The notes below the pieces were generated by a model. It was given only the letters and a program-made list of their open reading frames with translations. It searched no databases and was not told where the DNA came from. A stretch of DNA of 28,638 nucleotides from Opitutales bacterium (GTDB taxonomy: Bacteria > Verrucomicrobiota > Verrucomicrobiia > Opitutales > UBA953). The stretch covers positions 1 to 28,638 of the forward strand of contig JBBAUX010000011.1 of assembly GCA_040398005.1 (NCBI GenBank), written 5' to 3'. The translations under genes and the position numbers were made by a program. Positions 976 through 27,677 of the stretch are shown here, in pieces (positions within the stretch are counted from its first letter, which is position 1; each line of letters opens with the position of its first letter).

Positions 976-1977
976 TTATTCGGCTTTCAGTTTTATCAGG
1001 GTGATGTCAGCTGGGCGACAGGTGCCCAGTTTAATTTCACCATTATTGGCGGCTGAGAAAATAGCGGGCTCAGGGCGAATTGGCTCTACATTGCGCTCGG
1101 TTCTTCCGCCATTAATTTTTTGAAGTCCAATGTAGTCCAAGATAACCGGATTAGCGCTGGCGAGAATCGTTTTTTCTGACTTACACCAACTCGCGTCAAA
1201 GCTCGGTCCACCCAGTACTTGAAAGTTTTCTAACGAAACAATATTAAGAATATTCTTTGTAGAAAGTTCGGGTATCGCGCAAACTTCAATGGCTACCTTA
1301 GAAGCATTCGCGGGGTTGTCGTTGAATCGCTCGCTATTAGCGATGCTCCCCAGTGAGGCAGAACCCATGACACCAAAAACCCCGAGCGCTTTGCTGTCGG
1401 ATATCACGGGTAGATTAATCCAAAAATCGACTTCATCGAATAAGGTTTTGGGGAGAACGCTGATACGATTATCGCCCCAGGCCACGGTCGGAGAGCCCGG
1501 ACGTGGCATGACCTGATTTTCATAACAAAGTTTTTTATCCTTTGCCCAGTTAGTTGCTTCCGCTTCAAAAGCGATTACTGGTAGACCTTCAAAAGTTTGT
1601 GGATCGGTGCGGAGCGCAGGAAGGAAGCCGCACTCACGTAAGCTTTGCAGATTGGCATCGCACAAAATAATTGAGTCTCGATTAAAGCCTCGTTTTTCGA
1701 GGGCCTGACTTAAGGCGCGTACGAGTGGTTTGGGTGTGGCTAAGCCAAGTCCCGACTGTGAAGAAATTTTTAATCCACATTTTCCGAGTTTACCTGGTTT
1801 AAGTCCGATGCCGGTTTGTTTTTCAAATTCCTCAAGGATGCTATCCACTGCATAGGTGTAATGTTTGTCGCTGAACCCCTGAAGCTTTTGCTCGATGAGT
1901 AGCAACTTCGGGTCGGTGATAGCGTCTAAACTTAACACTAGGCTGCAAAAAGCAAAGAGAGTGAACAAGTGACGCAT
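976..1977 (-). CDS. Putative exported DUF362-like protein
   Basis: The ATG at 1977 gives a signal-peptide-like N-terminus (MRHLFTLFAFCSLVLSLDA). Segments GLKI...GLATPKPLVRAL...L...GF, DEVDFWINLPVISD and ILASANPVILD resemble DUF362 blocks from recollection; no search was run. Confidence 0.6.
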   Translation of the reverse strand: MRHLFTLFAFCSLVLSLDAITDPKLLLIEQKLQGFSDKHYTYAVDSILEEFEKQTGIGLKPGKLGKCGLKISSQSGLGLATPKPLVRALSQALEKRGFNRDSIILCDANLQSLRECGFLPALRTDPQTFEGLPVIAFEAEATNWAKDKKLCYENQVMPRPGSPTVAWGDNRISVLPKTLFDEVDFWINLPVISDSKALGVFGVMGSASLGSIANSERFNDNPANASKVAIEVCAIPELSTKNILNIVSLENFQVLGGPSFDASWCKSEKTILASANPVILDYIGLQKINGGRTERNVEPIRPEPAIFSAANNGEIKLGTCRPADITLIKLKAE

Positions 1978-2060
1978 CCCTAAATACTCTACTAAAAGTA
2001 GCATTTCGCAAGTTTGCTCTTTAGATTGCAGACTCACTGGGCAGTCTCTAGCCATTCAAC

Positions 2061-11315: not shown

Positions 11316-12446
11316 ATGAGCCGTCTGTTTGCCGCCATCTTATTATTGCCCGCATGCGTTTTTGCGGGGGTGTCTTTTGAAACCGACGCGCGCGATCTAA
11401 ATCGTTCACGAGCTGGAGCAAGCTACGCCGACATGTTATCACATATAACTCCAGCGGTTGTGAGTATTCGAATCGCTAAAACTATTCCTACGGAAATTGT
11501 TCGTCGTTTGCGCGGTCGTTTAACCGCTGAAGATTTAAAACAGTTGAAAGTGGATTCGCAAACGGGCGAAGTGCAGGCCTTCGTGGGTTTGGGTTCTGGT
11601 ACGATTGTGAACTCCAACGGTTATATTATTACCAATCGCCACGTTGTTTTAGTCAGCGATAATCGCACGGGCGCGACATCGATTGCGACGGCTGCCTATG
11701 TGACGCTCGCCGATAAAAGAGAATTTAAAGCACAGGTTATAGGTGTAGATGAGAAGACCGATATCGCTGTTTTAAAAATTAACGAAAAAAATCTTCCGTT
11801 CGCGCGATTTGCAGACAGCGAAAAATGTCGCGTCGGTGATGTCGTTTTTGCCATTGGGAATCCTTTGGGCGTTGGCATGACGGTGACATCGGGAATTGTT
11901 TCGGGGCTCAGTCGGTCAGACACTGGAGTGGGATTGGCTTATCAGGATTTTATTCAAACCGACGCAGCGATTAATGCCGGTAACTCGGGAGGCCCGCTGA
12001 TTGATTTTGAGGGCAGAATTATTGGGATGAATACCATGATACGTACGGCCAGCGGGCAGGGCGGAAACATCGGTATCGGCTTTTCAATTCCGTCTAATTT
12101 AATTTCAGGGGTGGCTTTAGATTTAGCCAATACCGGTAAAGTAACTCGCGGATTTTTAGGATTATTTGGAGAAGATGTTGAGACGGTTGCGGCGAAGAAG
12201 CTGATGTTAAATAATGGTGCTGTCCGTATTACGGAAGTTGCCGAAGGCTCGCCGGCATTTCGTGGTGGCTTGCGTAAAGATGATATCATCACGGCTGTGG
12301 ACGGTAAATCGTTTGAGAGTTGGAATGAATTGCGTATAATCATTGCCCGACGTAAACCTGGCGAAGTCATGCAACTATCCATGGTTAGAAACGGCGCGAA
12401 CTCTCTCGTGAACATTACCGTGTCGGAGCGCGCTCCGGGTAATTAA
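11316..12446 (+). CDS. HtrA/DegP-family periplasmic serine protease with one PDZ domain
   Basis: Signal peptide; GLGSG; catalytic triad in TNRHVV, DIAVLK and QTDAAINAGNSGG; one C-terminal PDZ (RGFLG...GSPA..GGL..DDII). Confidence 0.93.
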   Translation: MSRLFAAILLLPACVFAGVSFETDARDLNRSRAGASYADMLSHITPAVVSIRIAKTIPTEIVRRLRGRLTAEDLKQLKVDSQTGEVQAFVGLGSGTIVNSNGYIITNRHVVLVSDNRTGATSIATAAYVTLADKREFKAQVIGVDEKTDIAVLKINEKNLPFARFADSEKCRVGDVVFAIGNPLGVGMTVTSGIVSGLSRSDTGVGLAYQDFIQTDAAINAGNSGGPLIDFEGRIIGMNTMIRTASGQGGNIGIGFSIPSNLISGVALDLANTGKVTRGFLGLFGEDVETVAAKKLMLNNGAVRITEVAEGSPAFRGGLRKDDIITAVDGKSFESWNELRIIIARRKPGEVMQLSMVRNGANSLVNITVSERAPGN

Positions 12447-13216
12447 TGCGCTTACTCCGTTCCATTCGCGAATTAACCGGTGGTCAAGTGCCGCCGATCA
12501 CCCGTCGTGCCACCCTTGTGGTTGGTATTTTATTTTTTATATCTCTTATTATTTTCAAACCGCAAGCGAAGGTCTACCCGCGTGCACAGTCGTTGGCTCA
12601 CCCCGTTCAACTTTTACCTAAAGGAAGTGCGTTGGCTGAAAACGAGAGTTTGCTGGATGCTTCAGTGATTTATTTACCAGCGACCATGACAGAACGCCGG
12701 GTCACGTCTTCATCCGAGACCATTCAAGTGGAAGATGCTCCGCTCCCTGGCTTCGGCCCTCAATTTCGTTTTAATCCGAACCGTCCGCTCGATCTGCCTT
12801 TGGAGGCAGAAAAGTCTCAAGCTCCCAGTGCTTACCAGGCTATACCCCTCAAGGACACCCAACCGTTCGCTTCGATGGGCTCTGCCAATTTGTCCCAAAA
12901 CTCCATGGAGCCTAGGAGTGGTTTATACGAAGTTTATCCTGTAAGTGGGGCAAATAAGCCAATTTTAAGCGGCAAATTACCGACTAAAATCAAATTATTA
13001 GGAAATAATCCCATAAAAAAGGATAAATCAGCCCCACTTTATACAAATTTAGAGCTTTTAATTGCCTTAGATTCGATGGGAATGCAGGGGCAAGCTCGAT
13101 TATTGAGGTCTTCCGGGGATATTGAAGTGGATAATGAGGTAAAACAGTGGAGTTCTGGGATGGACTGGGGTCATCTCTTAGCTCCCGGCTTTTACCGTTT
13201 GGTGATCGGTCCGTGA
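12446..13216 (+). CDS. Hypothetical single-pass membrane protein with a possible TonB-C-like C-terminus
   Basis: TAATG stop/start overlap with the protease gene; one N-terminal hydrophobic helix (LVVGILFFISLIIF); Pro-rich middle; C-terminal LLIALDSMG...LLRSSGDIEVD. Confidence 0.6.
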   Translation: MRLLRSIRELTGGQVPPITRRATLVVGILFFISLIIFKPQAKVYPRAQSLAHPVQLLPKGSALAENESLLDASVIYLPATMTERRVTSSSETIQVEDAPLPGFGPQFRFNPNRPLDLPLEAEKSQAPSAYQAIPLKDTQPFASMGSANLSQNSMEPRSGLYEVYPVSGANKPILSGKLPTKIKLLGNNPIKKDKSAPLYTNLELLIALDSMGMQGQARLLRSSGDIEVDNEVKQWSSGMDWGHLLAPGFYRLVIGP

Positions 13217-13442: not shown

Positions 13443-14630
13443 ATGGCAAAAGAGAAGTTCAATCGCACTAAGCCTCACGTGAATGTCGGCACTATCGGTC
13501 ACATTGACCATGGTAAGTCTACCACCACTGCTGCTATCGTTGCCGTTCAGGCACGTAAAGGTCTCGCTGAGACCAAGTCTTATGCCGAAATCACCAAGGG
13601 TGGTACGGTTCGTGACGCTACAAAAACTGTGACCATCTCCGTGTCGCACGTTGAGTACGAATCTACCAATCGTCACTACGCACACGTCGATTGCCCAGGC
13701 CACGCTGACTTCGTGAAGAACATGATCACCGGTGCTGCGCAAATGGATGGAGCGATTCTCGTTGTATCCGCTGCTGATGGTGTGATGCCACAAACCAAGG
13801 AGCACATCCTTCTCGCACGTCAGGTTGGCGTTCCTAAGATTGTTGTCTGGTTAAATAAAGTAGACCTTTCCGAGCCTGATCTTATCGATCTCGTTGAAAT
13901 GGAAGTTCGCGACTTACTGAATAAATATCAGTACGATGGCGACAATGCTAAGATCGTTCGTGGTTCCGCTACGGCTGCTCTCGAAGGTACCCCCGAAGGC
14001 GAACAAGCGATTCAAAATCTTCTCGACGCTCTCGACGCAGAAATTCCTGAGCCTAAGCGCGAAACCGACAAACCTTTCATGATGTCTGTTGAAGACGTCT
14101 TCTCAATCACGGGTCGTGGTACTGTTGCCACTGGTCGTATTGAGCGTGGTGTTGTTAAGGTTGGCGAAGAAATTGAAATCGTCGGTCTCCGCGATACTCT
14201 CAAGACAACCGTTACGGGTGTTGAAATGTTCCGTAAGGAACTCGATCAAGGTCAAGCTGGCGACAACGTCGGTCTCCTTCTTCGTGGTGTTGAAAAAGCT
14301 CAAATCGAACGCGGACAAGTTCTCGCGAAGACTGGCTCAATCAAACCTCACACTCATGGTAAGGCACAAATCTACGTTCTGAAACAAGACGAAGGTGGCC
14401 GCCACACTTCCTTTACTAATAACTATCGTCCTCAGTTCTTCTTTGGAACTTGTGACGTTACCGGTACCGTCATCCTCCCTGAAGGAGTTGAAATGGTAAT
14501 GCCTGGTGACAACGTCACAATCACCATCGAATTACAAAAACCAATCGCTATGGAAAAAGGCCAACGCTTCGCGCTTCGTGAAGGTGGTAAGACCATTGGC
14601 GCAGGTCAGATCCTTGATATCATCAAGTAA
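13443..14630 (+). CDS. tuf: Elongation factor Tu
   Basis: [74 protein letters not shown] and [14 protein letters not shown]. Confidence 0.99.
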
Positions 14631-21878: not shown

Positions 21879-24800
21879 ATGATTCACCCGGAACATTCCC
21901 CTGAGTTTACCGCCAACGAAGCCAAGGAGCAGTCCTTCGACTTCGTTTCTATCTCGATCGCTTCACCCGAAGAAATTGTCGCCTGGACCGGAGAGCAGTT
22001 CCTCGACGAACTGGACGAGCACGGAAATCGCAAAGTAAAAGGACTCAAAGAAGTTAAGAGCCCTGAAACGATTAACTATCGCTCATTCAAGCCTGAGCCT
22101 AACGGTCTTTTCTGTCAGCGTATTTTCGGACCTGTCCGTGACTACGAGTGCTATTGCGGAAAATACAAAAAAGTTAAATATAAAGACGTCGTTTGTGATA
22201 AGTGCGGCGTTGAAGTAACCGTCTCCCGCGTTCGTCGCGAACGCATGGGTTACATTCGCATGGCGATCCCTGTTTCGCACATTTGGTTCTTAAAGAGCAT
22301 GCCTAGCCGTTTATCGCTGATGCTCGACATGACCACTCGTCAGTTAGAACAAGTCATCTACTACCAAAAATACTTAGTGGTCGATCCTGGTCAGACTGGC
22401 ATGGTTGAAAAAGAATTATTAGATGAAGAAGGTTACCGTAAAGCGGTTGAGACTCACGGTCCTGACGCGTTCAAAGCGCGTATGGGTGCAGAAGCTCTCC
22501 AGCAATTACTGAAGAAGATGGATTTAGCGGCGACCGTTGAAGGTTTACGCGATCAACTTCGCTCCACTCGCTCGAAGCAAATCAAGAAGAAGATCGCTCG
22601 TCGTATGAAGATTATCCAAGGCTTCTTGGCCTCTGGAAAACGTCCTGAGCACATGATCTTAACGGTACTCCCCGTTATTCCTCCTGACTTACGTCCTTTA
22701 GTTCCTTTAGAAGGCGGTCGCTTTGCGACTTCTGACTTAAACGATCTCTATCGTCGCGTCATCAATCGTAACAACCGATTGAAGCAACTCATCCAGATGA
22801 AAACGCCTGACGTAATCATCCATAATGAAATGCGTATGTTACAAGAAGCCGTGGATGCACTCTTGGACAATGGTCGTCACGGTAAGCCCGTTAAAGATCG
22901 CGATCGTCAGCTCAAATCCATCAGCGACATGTTGAAGGGTAAGCATGGACGTTTCCGTCAAAATCTTTTAGGTAAGCGCGTCGATTACTCCGGTCGTTCC
23001 GTCATCGTGATCGGTCCTGAATTAAAACTCAATCAGTGCGGTCTTCCTAAGAAGATGGCGCTCGTTTTATTCGAACCTTTCATTATTCGCCGCCTCAAAG
23101 ATCTTGGCTTTGCGCACACCGTTCGCGGTGCACGTAAGCATATTGAACAAAAGAAGCCTGAGGTTTGGGATATTTTAGAAGAAGTGACTAAAGGTCACCC
23201 TGTCTTCTTAAATCGTGCACCAACCCTGCACCGTCTTTCGATTCAGGCTTTCGAGCCTGTGCTCATCGAAGGTGATGCGATTCGTTTACACCCACTCGTT
23301 TGTACGGCGTACAATGCTGACTTCGACGGTGACCAAATGGCCGTTCACGTTCCGCTTTCACTGGAAGCTATCATGGAGTGTAAGCTCTTGATGATGTCCA
23401 CGAACAACATCTTCTCACCTTCAAGCGGTAAGCCGATCTTAACTCCATCCCAAGATATTGTGTTGGGTGCTTATTACCTGACGCTTGAACCTGCGAATAA
23501 GCCTAAGAGCGAACAACACTTACCCGTGATTGGTTCAGTCGAAGAAGCTAATTACGCCGAAGCCGAAGGTGCGCTGCACTTCCACGATTGGGTACGTTAT
23601 GCGAATCCTGACTTAGGTCGCGACACGGTGCACGGCGACAAAAACGCTCGCACCATTGTGACGACAGTCGGTCGTATTATTTTTAATACCATTTGGCCTT
23701 CCGAACTCGGCTTCTTTAATGAGACCGTGAAGAAGGGTCAGTTGGGCGATTTAATTCTTAAGACATACAAGGCCGTTGGTAAGGAACTTTCTATTCCTGT
23801 TCTTGATGCTCTGAAGGACACAGGTTTCCGCGTCGCAACTAAAGCTGGTATTTCAATCGGTGTATCCGACATGATTTATCCGGCCGAAAAAGATGCCGTC
23901 GTGAAAGAAGCCACCATCAAGGTTCGCGAATACCAAAAGCAAAACGAAAGTGGTACCATCACCAATGATGAGCGCCGAAACAAGGTCGTTGATACCTGGT
24001 CTAGTGCGACTAACACGATTGCTCAGTCTGTTTATAACACCCTCGCCGAAGCTGCGAAAGTAGCAGGTGTTCGTAAGGGTGACCCTCGTCACACCCACCG
24101 GATGATCATTAATCCAGTTTACGCGATGATGGATTCTGGTGCGCGTGGTAATAAAGCCCAGGTTAAGCAGTTGTGCGGTGCGCGTGGTTTGATGGCTAAA
24201 CCTTCCGGTGAAATTATCGAACGCCCAATCTTATCTTCATTCCGTGAAGGCCTCTCCGTTCTCGAGTACTTTATCTCGACGCACGGTGCGCGTAAGGGTC
24301 TTTCGGATACAGCGCTGAAAACCGCTGACGCCGGTTACATGACACGTAAGTTGTGTGACGTGGCGATGGATGTGATTGTCACCGACAATCGTAATCTTTC
24401 ATCCGGTTCCGAAGTTATTCCATTAAGCGATGCGGCGATTGGCCGTCACGTTTCAATCGACGTTCCTAATCCATCCGGTGCAGTTAAGCCTTTAATTAAA
24501 GCTGATACAACACTGACGGAAGAGATGGTCGCGAAGTTGCGCGATGCGGGTGTTGATCGTGTAGCCGTGCGTCTCCCTAATGGTGTTTGGAAATCCACGA
24601 TTTATGACGGTGACGAAATTCTCGTTCCTTTGGCTGACCGCATCATCGGTCGTTGCCCATCGGATGACGTCGTCAACCCTCTCAATCCTTCCGAAGTTAT
24701 CGTAGCTGCGGGTGAACTCATCACTGAGGACATCGCTAAAGCTATCGAGAAGTCCGGTATCGATCGCGTTAAAGTTCTTTCGCCACTCACGCACATGCAC

Positions 24801-26216
24801 GTGAATGCAATTCCGCCTAAGTCGTACGGTCTCGATCCATCGACTGGTCGCATCGTAGAACGTGGTACTGCGGTTGGAATTATTGCTGCACAATCCATCG
24901 GTGAACCAGGTACTCAGTTAACTATGCGTACTTTCCACATTGGTGGTGTTGCTCAGTTAAAGACTCCTGAAATCAAAACCGAAATCAATGGTCACATTGA
25001 ATTCGTGGATCTTAACACGGTACCTCTGCATGATGCACTCGTTGCCGTTAACGGTACGGGCTTAATTCGAATCGTGGGTGAAGCTAATCAGCCCGCCAAA
25101 GAATATCGTATTCTCGCCGGTACGGTGATCAAGGTGAAGGACGGACAAGCAATCAAGAAAGACCAAATCATTGCTGCTTGGGATCCGAACAACACGCCGA
25201 TTCTCGCTAACGCAATCGGTAAGATTCGTCTCATTGATATGATCAATGGTGTGACTTACAATGAAGAGCGCGATACCGCTGCGAATAAATTCATCAAGAG
25301 CATCATCGAACACTCCGATGAACAAAATCCGCAAATCCAAATCGTAAATGAGAAGGGTGATAACCTCGGAACATTTTCGATTCCGGCCGGTGCTCGTGTC
25401 GTCGTCGAAGAAGGCACCGAAGTTGAAGTAGGAACCTTGCTCGCAAGAATTCCACGTCAGGCTGCGAAGACTCAAGATATTACTGCTGGTTTACCGCGTA
25501 TTTCCGAACTCTTTGAAGCTCGTCCTCCCAAGGATGCTGCTGAAATTGCGAAGATCGATGGCGAGGTTGAATTCCAACCTTCCGTTCGCGGTAAGAAGCG
25601 CTTGGTCATCAAAGATTCCATCGGTCGCGAAGAAGAACACTTAATTCCTCACGGTAAACACATCAACGTGGTTGCTGGCGAAAAAGTTAAGCAAGGCCAG
25701 CCGCTCACGGATGGTGCCGTCGACCCTCACGATATCTTGGATATTCTCGGTCAATCGCGTGTACAGGATTACCTCATCACCGAAATTCAAAAAGTTTACC
25801 GTTCACAGGGTGTTGTCATTAACGACAAGCACATTGAAATCATCGTAGCTCGAATGCTCCGCAAGGTACGCATTACCGAGCCGGGTGATTCTGATTACTT
25901 GTGGGGCGAACACGTCGATCGTAGCACGCTCGCAGCAGTGAATCGTTCGATTCATGAACGCGGTGGTCAGATCGCCGAATACGAACCCATCCTTCTGGGT
26001 ATCACCAAAGCATCGCTTGAGACTGAGTCCTTCATCTCGGCCGCTTCTTTCCAAGAAACCACCCGTGTTCTGACCGATGCAGCTACCATGGCTCGTCGCG
26101 ATCCATTGACTGGATTCAAGGAAAATGTGATTATGGGACACCTCGTCCCAGCGGGTACCGGACTACCTATGTATCGTAAGATTAAGGTAACCCCGACCGA
26201 ACTCGCTGCTGAGTAG
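21879..26216 (+). CDS. rpoC: DNA-directed RNA polymerase subunit beta'
   Basis: Intact N-terminal Zn ribbon (CYC...CDKC), catalytic NADFDGD, bridge helix [17 protein letters not shown], trigger loop [15 protein letters not shown] and [12 protein letters not shown]. Confidence 0.99.
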
Positions 26217-26351: not shown

Positions 26352-27677
26352 ATGCCTAAAACGAAGTTTTTCTTAGCCGCCGCTACCTTGCTCGGCACTA
26401 CTGCGTTCGTCAGTGCCGCAACTATTTTTCCGACCTCTCCCTTGATCCAGATTGGCGATGATACCGACATATTTTTCAACGGCGCCTTGTCTTTTGATTT
26501 TAAGGATAATTTGTACTCCGTTGTTGATAAAAAATCTGCGGCATTAATGACTTTTACGCCTGGGTTCGATTTGCTTTATGCCAAAGACAGCCCTCTCTCC
26601 GCAAATTTGAAGGCCTCACGATCTTTCTTACGTTACAATAAATCTGAATATAAAGATTTAGAACAAGGTCAGAGTAATATTAGCGCGAGTGCGAATTATG
26701 AGACTGGCGGACCCTTGGTTGTTGGAGTTTCTACCTCTTATAATGAGTCCGCCCGAAACGATAATTTGGCCAGTATTTTAGGGGCGGATAGCGGTAAAGT
26801 TCTCGGTGCTACTTTGGTGCGTCAGGCTAATTATTCTCACTCATTGAATATTGGGTATAAGCTCAGCGAAAAGTTGAACCTAAAAGTAGGCTTTATCAAT
26901 TCCTACAATCACTACTTAAACCCCGTTAAGACTAGCACAACGACAGTAGCTCCAATCACCCTCATTGAAACTACGGACATTGCCTATAACACAAATACTC
27001 TGAGTGAAATTAACACCAAATCGATTCCAATCAGTATTACTTATAAGACCCCTAGCGAAAAATTGGAGTACGGATTGAATTTTACGCATGATTTAAGCAA
27101 CTACTCGGCCGCACCTTACTTCCATACAAAGCAACAAACATTACCTCTGCTGCCAGGAGTTACGACTATACCCCGTCCACCTGGACAACAAAAATTTACC
27201 AAGGATTTCGTCGGCTTAACTGTAAACGGACAGCCTACTTCTTCCGGCAAGATTCGCATCACCACCAGTCTTGGTTATTTCAGTTCTGATTTAGATGGAG
27301 TGTCGAACAACGGTCTGTCGTACAATTTGACAGTTTCACATAACTTAACCGAAAAATTTACTCACGAACTTAATTTAGTTCATGATGTATCGGCTTCCGC
27401 AGCTGGTGGATCAATCAAGAACGACACTATCGGTTATACCGTGTCCTATGCCTTATTAGAAAATGTTGCGCTCAGTTTTCACGCATTAAAATCTAAGGCC
27501 GTCTCAGGTACCACCCAAGTTGACTCACTAGACTTTAACGCGGGTGTTAATTGGGAGTACAATAAATACATCAGATTTGCTGCCAAGGTTGATGCTCTAG
27601 ATTCCAAAGTTAAGAACTCGCCCGCCTCCAATTTTAAAGCGAATTCCATCAATCTTTCGACCACTTTCCGTTATTAA
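26352..27677 (+). CDS. Outer-membrane beta-barrel protein, probably associated with polysaccharide export
   Basis: Signal peptide (MPKTKFFLAAATLLGTTAFVSA), many amphipathic strands with aromatic ends (LNIGYKL, YNLTVSH, AGVNWEYN), C-terminal BAM-type signal NLSTTFRY; directly upstream of an OPX gene. Confidence 0.75.
   Translation: MPKTKFFLAAATLLGTTAFVSAATIFPTSPLIQIGDDTDIFFNGALSFDFKDNLYSVVDKKSAALMTFTPGFDLLYAKDSPLSANLKASRSFLRYNKSEYKDLEQGQSNISASANYETGGPLVVGVSTSYNESARNDNLASILGADSGKVLGATLVRQANYSHSLNIGYKLSEKLNLKVGFINSYNHYLNPVKTSTTTVAPITLIETTDIAYNTNTLSEINTKSIPISITYKTPSEKLEYGLNFTHDLSNYSAAPYFHTKQQTLPLLPGVTTIPRPPGQQKFTKDFVGLTVNGQPTSSGKIRITTSLGYFSSDLDGVSNNGLSYNLTVSHNLTEKFTHELNLVHDVSASAAGGSIKNDTIGYTVSYALLENVALSFHALKSKAVSGTTQVDSLDFNAGVNWEYNKYIRFAAKVDALDSKVKNSPASNFKANSINLSTTFRY

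What the first reader, a model, noticed from the sequence alone, without database searches (positions are those of the whole stretch)
24405..24779. Tandem duplication of a ~55-aa module in RNA polymerase beta' between the bridge helix and trigger loop
Seen: [51 protein letters not shown] aligns without gaps to [51 protein letters not shown], with 19/51 identities by hand count (copies at about aa 843-898 and 911-967). Known: E. coli beta' has one such segment (PLRDRVLGR...DAVKVR), and it resembles the BBM2-type modules that form lineage-specific RNAP insertions. Inference: the first copy is an extra, diverged domain inserted where the conserved DDCGT motif normally lies. It may be an uncatalogued lineage-specific beta' insertion close to the catalytic mobile elements.
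Basis: partly seen in the sequence, partly recalled or inferred. Interest (0 to 1): 0.72.

Follow-up and report, generated by a model that had tools for sequence, protein, structure and literature searches.

The report
Duplicated BEAN module in RNA polymerase
Two related genera of uncultured Opitutales bacteria, known mostly from fresh water, carry an extra 58-amino-acid copy of a small module in the beta' subunit of RNA polymerase; it likely arose by local duplication and is predicted to fold as a surface appendage, making it a late-arising example of a known way this enzyme grows.

Summary
RpoC aa 848-898 and 917-967 align ungapped at 19/51 (0 of 5000 shuffles reach the score). Against sister genera the net gain is 58 aa (G843-P900), a copy of native G911-P969. 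The native unit is the universal beta'-bD5 BEAN/BBM2 domain. The insert's model (pLDDT 80) matches the BEAN carriers: beta', beta-i4, MoeA, decarboxylases and uL10. The insert occurs in 97 of 98 matched genomes of two genera (one clade) and in 0 of 28 from three sister genera, with dN/dS about 0.13. It sits just after the former Zn-ligand loop. That Zn site was lost earlier, across the sampled order, so the insert did not displace DDCGT. An unrelated lineage duplicated the same module independently. The same clade also has a rudder deletion, an 18-aa N-terminal insert and faster RpoB/RpoC/NusG evolution. The site is not in the 2024 BEAN catalogue's text or Table S4; Lane and Darst 2010 could not be read. 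No effect on catalysis is shown. The scan noted this feature before in another genome (e1-5334621). Verdict: new variant of a known kind, interest 0.37.

The parts
21879..26216 (+). rpoC, RNA polymerase beta' (1445 aa), in a tuf-nusG-rplKAJL-rpoBC cluster
24384..24404 (+). 7-aa loop (aa 836-842) at the position of the first Zn-II cysteine in other bacteria (E. coli ~811-817); no cysteine here
24405..24578 (+). Inserted BEAN/BBM2 copy A (G843-P900, 58 aa)
24579..24608 (+). Native 10-aa strand (aa 901-910) that separates the two copies
24609..24785 (+). Native BEAN/BBM2 copy B (G911-P969, core of beta'-bD5), the likely donor
24786..24833 (+). Degenerate Zn-II region (aa 970-985): the three C-terminal cysteines are absent, as in the other sampled members of the order
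21990..22043 (+). Second clade-specific insert in RpoC, 18 aa, acidic, just before the EVK-PETINY motif; co-inherited with copy A
22875..22913 (+). Clade-specific 1-aa deletion plus substitutions in the beta' rudder region (aa 333-345; 'rudder' label recalled); co-inherited with copy A

Best explanation
The 58-residue insert is a second copy of the beta' BEAN/BBM2 module that likely arose once by local duplication in the ancestor of two Opitutales genera, and it is predicted to fold as a separate surface domain. Likely steps: (1) the order first lost the Zn-II cysteines, leaving a loop without a metal ligand after the bridge helix (distribution shown; permissive role inferred). (2) A 69-codon tandem duplication then lost the 10-11 leading codons of the first copy, or a 58-codon copy landed 10 codons upstream (both fit the junction; inferred). 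(3) Copy B kept the native position, since it keeps its flanks and the invariant Arg and Cys of the R-x-x-GRC motif, while copy A replaced them with Ala and His (shown in sequence; docking inferred). (4) Copy A closes on its own first and last strands and projects from the loop (single-domain fold predicted; orientation not modelled). It is now kept by purifying selection, most likely as an entrenched structural appendage on the outside of the enzyme rather than as a part of catalysis (inferred).
For: HHalign of the copy A profile against the native module of insert-free relatives: probability 97.7, E 2e-12. In a six-frame search of the whole genome (15,883 frames) the only other hit is copy B (E 5e-5); RpoB is not hit. 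The copy A profile scores native modules of the order at 33-34 bits on average against 17 for other phylum members. A G-x-[DE]-R-V-x-V-x-x-P-type end motif occurs in 50 of 54 copy A sequences, 33 of 36 native modules of the order and 0 of 19 outside it. AlphaFold2: insert alone pLDDT 80.3; in the two-copy model both module cores score about 73-85. Fold hits: MoeA Z 9.5, beta' Z 7.5, beta-i4 Z 6.8, Orn/Lys/Arg decarboxylase Z 6.8, uL10 Z 3.7, and Z 10.8 with rmsd 1.3 A over 59 residues to E. coli MoeA; this is the set of BEAN carriers listed in PMC11515920. The tree built without the insert gives one clade of 17 bearers, SH-aLRT 100. dN/dS is 0.13 for copy A and 0.09 for copy B over 28 disjoint pairs. 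Arg: 41 of 41 copy B, 17 of 17 outgroup, 0 of 54 copy A.
Against: Scores alone do not fix the donor: one of 4 distant modules scored 40 bits, equal to the best in-family modules, and the Xanthomonas-type beta' module in the PDB scored 26 bits against 23 for the window's own copy B. No Foldseek hit reached E <= 0.001. The two-copy model is poor overall (pLDDT 57.8, pTM 0.40; linkers under 50), so the packing of the copies is not resolved. Independent duplications with Zn-II intact exist (P0028-P0033), so Zn loss is not required. dN/dS cannot separate fold maintenance from a binding function.
Confidence: 0.72

Rival explanations
1. Copy A is a new binding surface for a regulator or for downstream DNA, gained during a clade-specific remodelling of the transcription machinery.
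For: Copy A has its own invariant residues (GRH, LRDA) and is less acidic than copy B (mean net charge -1.8 against -3.8). The same stem carries an invariant rudder deletion (75 of 75 insert-bearing loci, 0 of 21 others) and an 18-aa N-terminal insert (49 of 49 against 0 of 15) (loci are partly redundant). The stem's share of tree length is 0.11-0.12 for RpoB, RpoC and NusG against 0.022 for four ribosomal proteins, with non-overlapping ranges over 12 resamplings. E. coli beta-i4 has a proposed regulator patch (PMC2939025, passage).
Against: No partner was identified. Omega (24 of 25), the GreA N-domain (25 of 25) and DksA-type zinc fingers (25 of 25) are present in bearers and non-bearers alike. 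EF-Tu also has a long stem (0.09), so the acceleration is not strictly limited to transcription. Copy A is no more conserved than copy B (80% against 83% mean identity).
Confidence: 0.15
2. Copy A came from elsewhere (an RpoB BBM2 repeat or a free BBM2-repeat protein) and resembles copy B only as a family member.
For: BBM2-like repeats with a similar helix signature occur in non-RNAP proteins and in arrays in other RpoC/RpoB proteins (P0004, P0007, P0009, P0020). Some distant modules score as high as local ones.
Against: No other donor was found in the genome. The window's two RpoB segments tested score 26-40 against 80-86 for the order's beta' modules, and the order-specific end motif is shared. 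The copy sits 10 codons from its homologue with matching boundaries.
Confidence: 0.08
3. Copy A structurally replaces the lost Zn-II site or has taken over the native module's position.
For: It lies next to the former Zn ligand, in a lineage without the site. VIA-align superposes model residues 16-84 on E. coli beta' 808-887.
Against: All 21 insert-free members of the order also lack a complete site and manage without the insert. Copy B keeps the native flanks and the invariant Arg. The superposition only reflects the shared fold.
Confidence: 0.04
4. Assembly artefact or chance similarity.
For: None; the genome is metagenome-assembled in style (14 contigs).
Against: Present in frame in 97 genomes with 57 distinct protein variants in the loci read; the copies are only 42% identical in DNA.
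Confidence: 0.01

Closest known systems
beta'-bD5, the BEAN domain of all bacterial beta' subunits (CATH 3.90.105.10; Alvarez-Carreno et al. 2024, PMC11515920)
   Same: Copy B is this domain; copy A is homologous to it (HHalign 97.7) and predicted to share its fold.
   Different: Type 1 beta' has a single such domain. Here there are two, 10 residues apart, and the extra one lacks the leading strand and the invariant Arg.
BBM2 lineage-specific inserts of RNAP beta, e.g. E. coli beta-i4/SI1 with two tandem BBM2 (Opalka et al. 2010, PMC2939025)
   Same: A compact BBM2 unit added in a loop, occurring in tandem copies; fold hit to beta-i4 (7egs_A Z 6.8).
   Different: It is in beta', not beta; it lacks the TG[DE] motif of beta-type BEANs; and it is confined to two genera rather than to whole phyla.
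Rare beta' variants with inserts in beta'-bD2, bD4, bD5 (second half) and bD7 (PMC11515920 text and Table S4)
   Same: Extra domains added to beta', including within the same domain bD5.
   Different: Those are in deep Terrabacteria/DST lineages (16 listed proteins, none from PVC). This one is at the N-terminal loop of bD5 in a late-branching Gracilicutes clade. I could not see Figure S2, so the exact bD5 variants were not compared.
Unnamed RpoC group P0013, P0028-P0033 found here
   Same: An extra BEAN copy at beta'-bD5 (segment 194-195 aa against 138; repeat scores above shuffles in P0028 and P0030).
   Different: Unrelated RpoC (about 38-45% identical), different register (head-to-tail, after the leading strand), all four Zn-II cysteines kept.

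Membership tests
BEAN/BBM2 domain | Core of two bracket elements, helix-strand-strand / strand-strand-helix (CATH 3.90.105.10) | tested here: met
   Model shows a short helix, four short strand or bridge elements and a long helix; the top structural hits are BEAN carriers. Based on a prediction, not a solved structure.
BEAN/BBM2 domain | Full-domain profile similarity, HHalign probability > 70 | tested here: met
   97.4 and 97.7 against profiles of the native beta' module built here; the authors' own profiles were not available.
BEAN/BBM2 domain | Insertional: interrupts a host domain | tested here: met
   58-aa block absent from sister genera with intact flanks.
RNAP-beta-type lineage-specific BEAN (beta-i4 etc.) | TG[DE] motif and location in RpoB | tested here: not met
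   The hairpin loop of copy A reads NPSG in the consensus, and the insert is in RpoC.
Catalogued beta' lineage-specific insertions (Alvarez-Carreno 2024) | [quoted passage not shown] | tested here: not met
   The insert precedes the first strand of the module, at about E. coli 817/818. Judged from the main text and Table S4 only; the supplementary PDF could not be read.
Lane and Darst 2010 / Iyer 2004 beta' inserts | Matches a numbered beta' insert site | not testable with these tools
   PMC2813377 and PMC2813324 are not held; Iyer 2004 was not read.
Canonical beta' Zn-II site | Four cysteines (E. coli 814/888/895/898; numbers recalled, the first checked) | tested here: not met
   None of the four in the window's RpoC; 0 of 21 insert-free order members keep all four; 19 of 19 other phylum members do.

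The most novel reading that the evidence does not exclude
The ancestor of these freshwater Opitutales rebuilt its RNA polymerase in one burst: a new BEAN domain beside a Zn-less site, an altered rudder, an acidic N-terminal insert and fast RpoB/NusG change. Copy A is a functional surface that changes pausing or factor binding. With the independent duplications found elsewhere, beta'-bD5 would be a still-active source of BBM2 copies, showing in recent time the local-duplication mechanism behind RNAP insertions thought to have stopped early in bacterial evolution.
Probability: 0.2. Interest if true: 0.65.

Novelty: new variant of a known kind. Interest (0 to 1): 0.37.

Why it matters
The 2024 survey (PMC11515920) argues that BEAN/HABAS insertion into RNAP largely ceased after early bacterial evolution and says the mechanism is unclear. 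This is a datable, sub-family-level case in which the likely donor sits 10 codons away. A second, independent case exists at the same module, so local duplication is a concrete mechanism and insertion has continued. It is also a clean clade marker, and it exposes an RNAP that lacks the otherwise conserved Zn-II site. It is not a new kind of domain or system, and no functional consequence is shown.

Tried and rejected
(1) Pfam finds no family for either copy alone. (2) The 2898-aa open frames in two g21 genomes are not RpoB-RpoC fusions; the upstream part is off-frame text. (3) The idea that the insert compensates for a lost factor: omega, GreA and DksA-type genes do not track the insert. (4) P0011 looks like an independent duplication in the same register (0 of 2000 shuffles). 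But it is one unnamed protein with aberrant ends; a search for longer relatives found none among 85 candidates, and the one metagenome locus returned (L144) has no insert. I treat it as an unconfirmed lead. P0013's own repeat is weak (19 of 2000 shuffles). (5) Literature searches listed no paper describing this insert; the library lacks most subscription papers. (6) The careful IQ-TREE run did not finish; the quick tree with SH-aLRT only is reported. (7) The two-copy model could not place the insert on the enzyme; no coordinates of a solved RNAP were available to scripts. (8) No complex prediction or read mapping was run: there was no candidate partner, and the spread across genomes already excludes an artefact.

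Full report
Observation. The finding lies in rpoC (window 21879-26216, 1445 aa) within a tuf-nusG-rplKAJL-rpoBC cluster. The two quoted 51-aa segments are at aa 848-898 and 917-967, with 19 ungapped identities. The score of 98 compares with a shuffle mean of 26, and 0 of 5000 shuffles reach it. DNA identity is 65/153.

Anatomy. From the bridge-helix motif to the trigger-loop motif the window has 197 aa. Eight genomes of other families have 139 (one 146), and ten genomes of sister genera have 139 (one 137). The gain is G843-P900, a 58-aa copy of G911-P969. The 7-residue loop before it and the 10-residue strand after it are native. By offset the site is about E. coli beta' 817/818, just after the first Zn-II cysteine. 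The 60 of 78 PDB beta' sequences listed all have 136-141 aa here.

Distribution. In the family (137 genomes), 98 genomes of genera g1 and g21 matched, counting the window's own. Of these, 97 show insert sequence continuous with rpoC (91 over the full query, 6 partial), and 1 is an uninformative fragment. None of the 28 matched genomes of g18, g19 and g20 has it. Eleven genomes, all at most 76% complete, gave no match. An order-wide draw with the insert profile hit 6 of 301 genomes, all g1 or g21. In a phylum draw, 249 of 251 matched and only the two g1 genomes matched in one piece; that test cannot exclude other inserts at the site, but 22 segments read directly were 138-143 aa. A few titles name other taxa and look like mislabelled bins. 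A tree of 35 RpoC rows with the insert removed puts all 17 bearers on one side of a branch (SH-aLRT 100, quick search; stem 0.54), which fits a single origin.

Fold. AlphaFold2 gives the insert alone pLDDT 80.3 and pTM 0.59. In the two-copy model both cores are confident but the linkers are not (mean 57.8). Foldseek had no hit at E <= 0.001; its best rows are MoeA, RNAP beta' and beta, and gephyrin. VIA-align over 48,161 chains ranks MoeA (Z 9.5), beta' (7.5), beta-i4 (6.8), Orn/Lys/Arg decarboxylases (6.8) and uL10 (3.7). In the two-copy model copy A fits E. coli MoeA at Z 10.8, rmsd 1.3 A over 59 residues. These are the carriers that PMC11515920 lists for BEAN, and that paper names the native beta' unit beta'-bD5, present in all bacteria.

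Donor. The copy A profile matches the native module of insert-free relatives at HHalign probability 97.7, and across the whole genome it hits only copy B. It scores modules of the order higher than those of other phylum members (33-34 against 17 bits), and it shares an end motif found in 33 of 36 modules of the order and 0 of 19 outside it (50 of 54 copy A sequences under a slightly looser pattern). Against this, single distant modules score as high. A local origin is likely but not proven.

Selection. Over 28 disjoint close pairs from 59 indel-free sequences, dN/dS is 0.13 for copy A, 0.09 for copy B, 0.02 for the downstream stretch and 0 for the bridge-helix end. Copy B and outgroups keep an invariant Arg (41 of 41, 17 of 17), which copy A never has (0 of 54); copy A has an invariant His where copy B has Cys. 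I infer that copy B keeps the native docking.

Zinc site. All four cysteines are present in 19 of 19 phylum members outside the order and complete in 0 of 21 insert-free members of the order; four of those keep one. The loss therefore predates the insert. That this site aids RNAP assembly in E. coli is recalled, not read here.

Parallels. An unfiltered search of 1.84 billion representatives returned 25 proteins. P0013 and six full or long relatives (P0028-P0033) have a head-to-tail extra module at the same domain, 194-195 aa in the segment, with Zn-II intact and only about 38-45% identity to the window's RpoC. Their taxon was not shown by any search. P0011 shows the same register as the window but is a single, unconfirmed sequence. 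P0009 and P0004 carry arrays of such modules near the beta' C-terminus.

Context on the same stem. Bearers also share a 1-aa rudder deletion (75 of 75 loci against 0 of 21; the 60 listed PDB chains keep the longer form) and an 18-aa insert near the N-terminus (49 of 49 against 0 of 15), at a site where cyanobacteria have a shorter insert. Locus counts include repeated genomes. The stem takes 0.11-0.12 of tree length for RpoB, RpoC and NusG, against 0.022 for four ribosomal proteins (18 taxa); EF-Tu is intermediate at 0.09. Omega, GreA and DksA-type genes do not track the insert.

How it most likely works. A local duplication placed a self-closing BEAN domain in a surface loop, and the native copy stayed in place. 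The extra copy became entrenched, persisting even in 1.4-Mb genomes, most likely as a structural appendage (0.72). A new binding surface is the main rival (0.15). That this region belongs to the shelf is recalled; PMC9378689 (two passages) only confirms that the shelf is part of the swivel module. No effect on catalysis is shown.

Literature seen. PMC11515920: parts 1-5 of 6 of the text, a term search of the spreadsheet and its last part with Table S4; the supplementary PDF with Figure S2 was unreadable and may bear on the novelty claim. Its bioRxiv version, PMC2939025 and PMC9378689: passages only. Lane and Darst 2010a/b: not held. Iyer 2004: not read. Searches (listings only) showed no paper on this insert. 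An earlier scan note (e1-5334621) describes the same feature in another genome with the same basic reading; I had reached that reading before seeing it, and it is not independent support.

Verdict. Real, old, single-origin and predicted to fold; a known module and a known mode of RNAP growth, at a site and a late date not found in the catalogue I could read. New variant of a known kind; interest 0.37.

Noticed in passing
window 22875-22913 (RpoC aa 333-345): One-residue deletion and charge changes in the normally very conserved rudder region; invariant in insert-bearing loci and not seen in the 60 PDB chains listed. Possibly more consequential than the insert.
   Followed up: partly
window 21990-22043 (RpoC aa 38-55): 18-aa acidic insert in the same clade, at the site where cyanobacterial RpoC1 has a shorter insert.
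   Followed up: partly
window 24384-24404 and 24786-24833; L023-L030, L038-L047, L122, L123, L142: The beta' Zn-II site is lost across all sampled members of the order, in steps: one family keeps only the first cysteine. One search found no paper on it.
   Followed up: partly
P0013, P0028-P0033; P0011: Independent duplications of the beta' BEAN module in unrelated, unnamed lineages with Zn-II cysteines kept; P0011 is unconfirmed.
   Followed up: partly
P0009 aa ~1370-1620; P0004: RpoC with a long array of BBM2-like repeats near the C-terminus.
   Followed up: no
P0007, P0017: Proteins with no Pfam hit, hydrophobic ends and about three BBM2-like repeats; non-RNAP carriers of the module.
   Followed up: no
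L102:1999-2043: One relative's rpoC has an in-frame 62-codon gap that removes the end of the bridge helix and most of copy A; likely a misassembly. Reads were not checked.
   Followed up: no
G000:C2:40604-40765: The omega match in 7 of 8 g1 genomes spans 153-162 nt instead of about 129, suggesting a small insert in omega limited to that genus.
   Followed up: no
window 13443-14627: EF-Tu is 92-97% identical within the clade but only 74-79% to sister genera and outgroups, a sharper drop than in neighbouring ribosomal proteins.
   Followed up: no
window 976-2055 (-), 12446-13216 (+), 26352-27677 (+): Three ORFs of 359, 256 and 441 aa with no Pfam match.
   Followed up: no
L062, L083, L081: Records titled Akkermansia, Klebsiella or Coraliomargarita carry this clade's rpoC; the titles look like mislabelled bins.
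   Followed up: no
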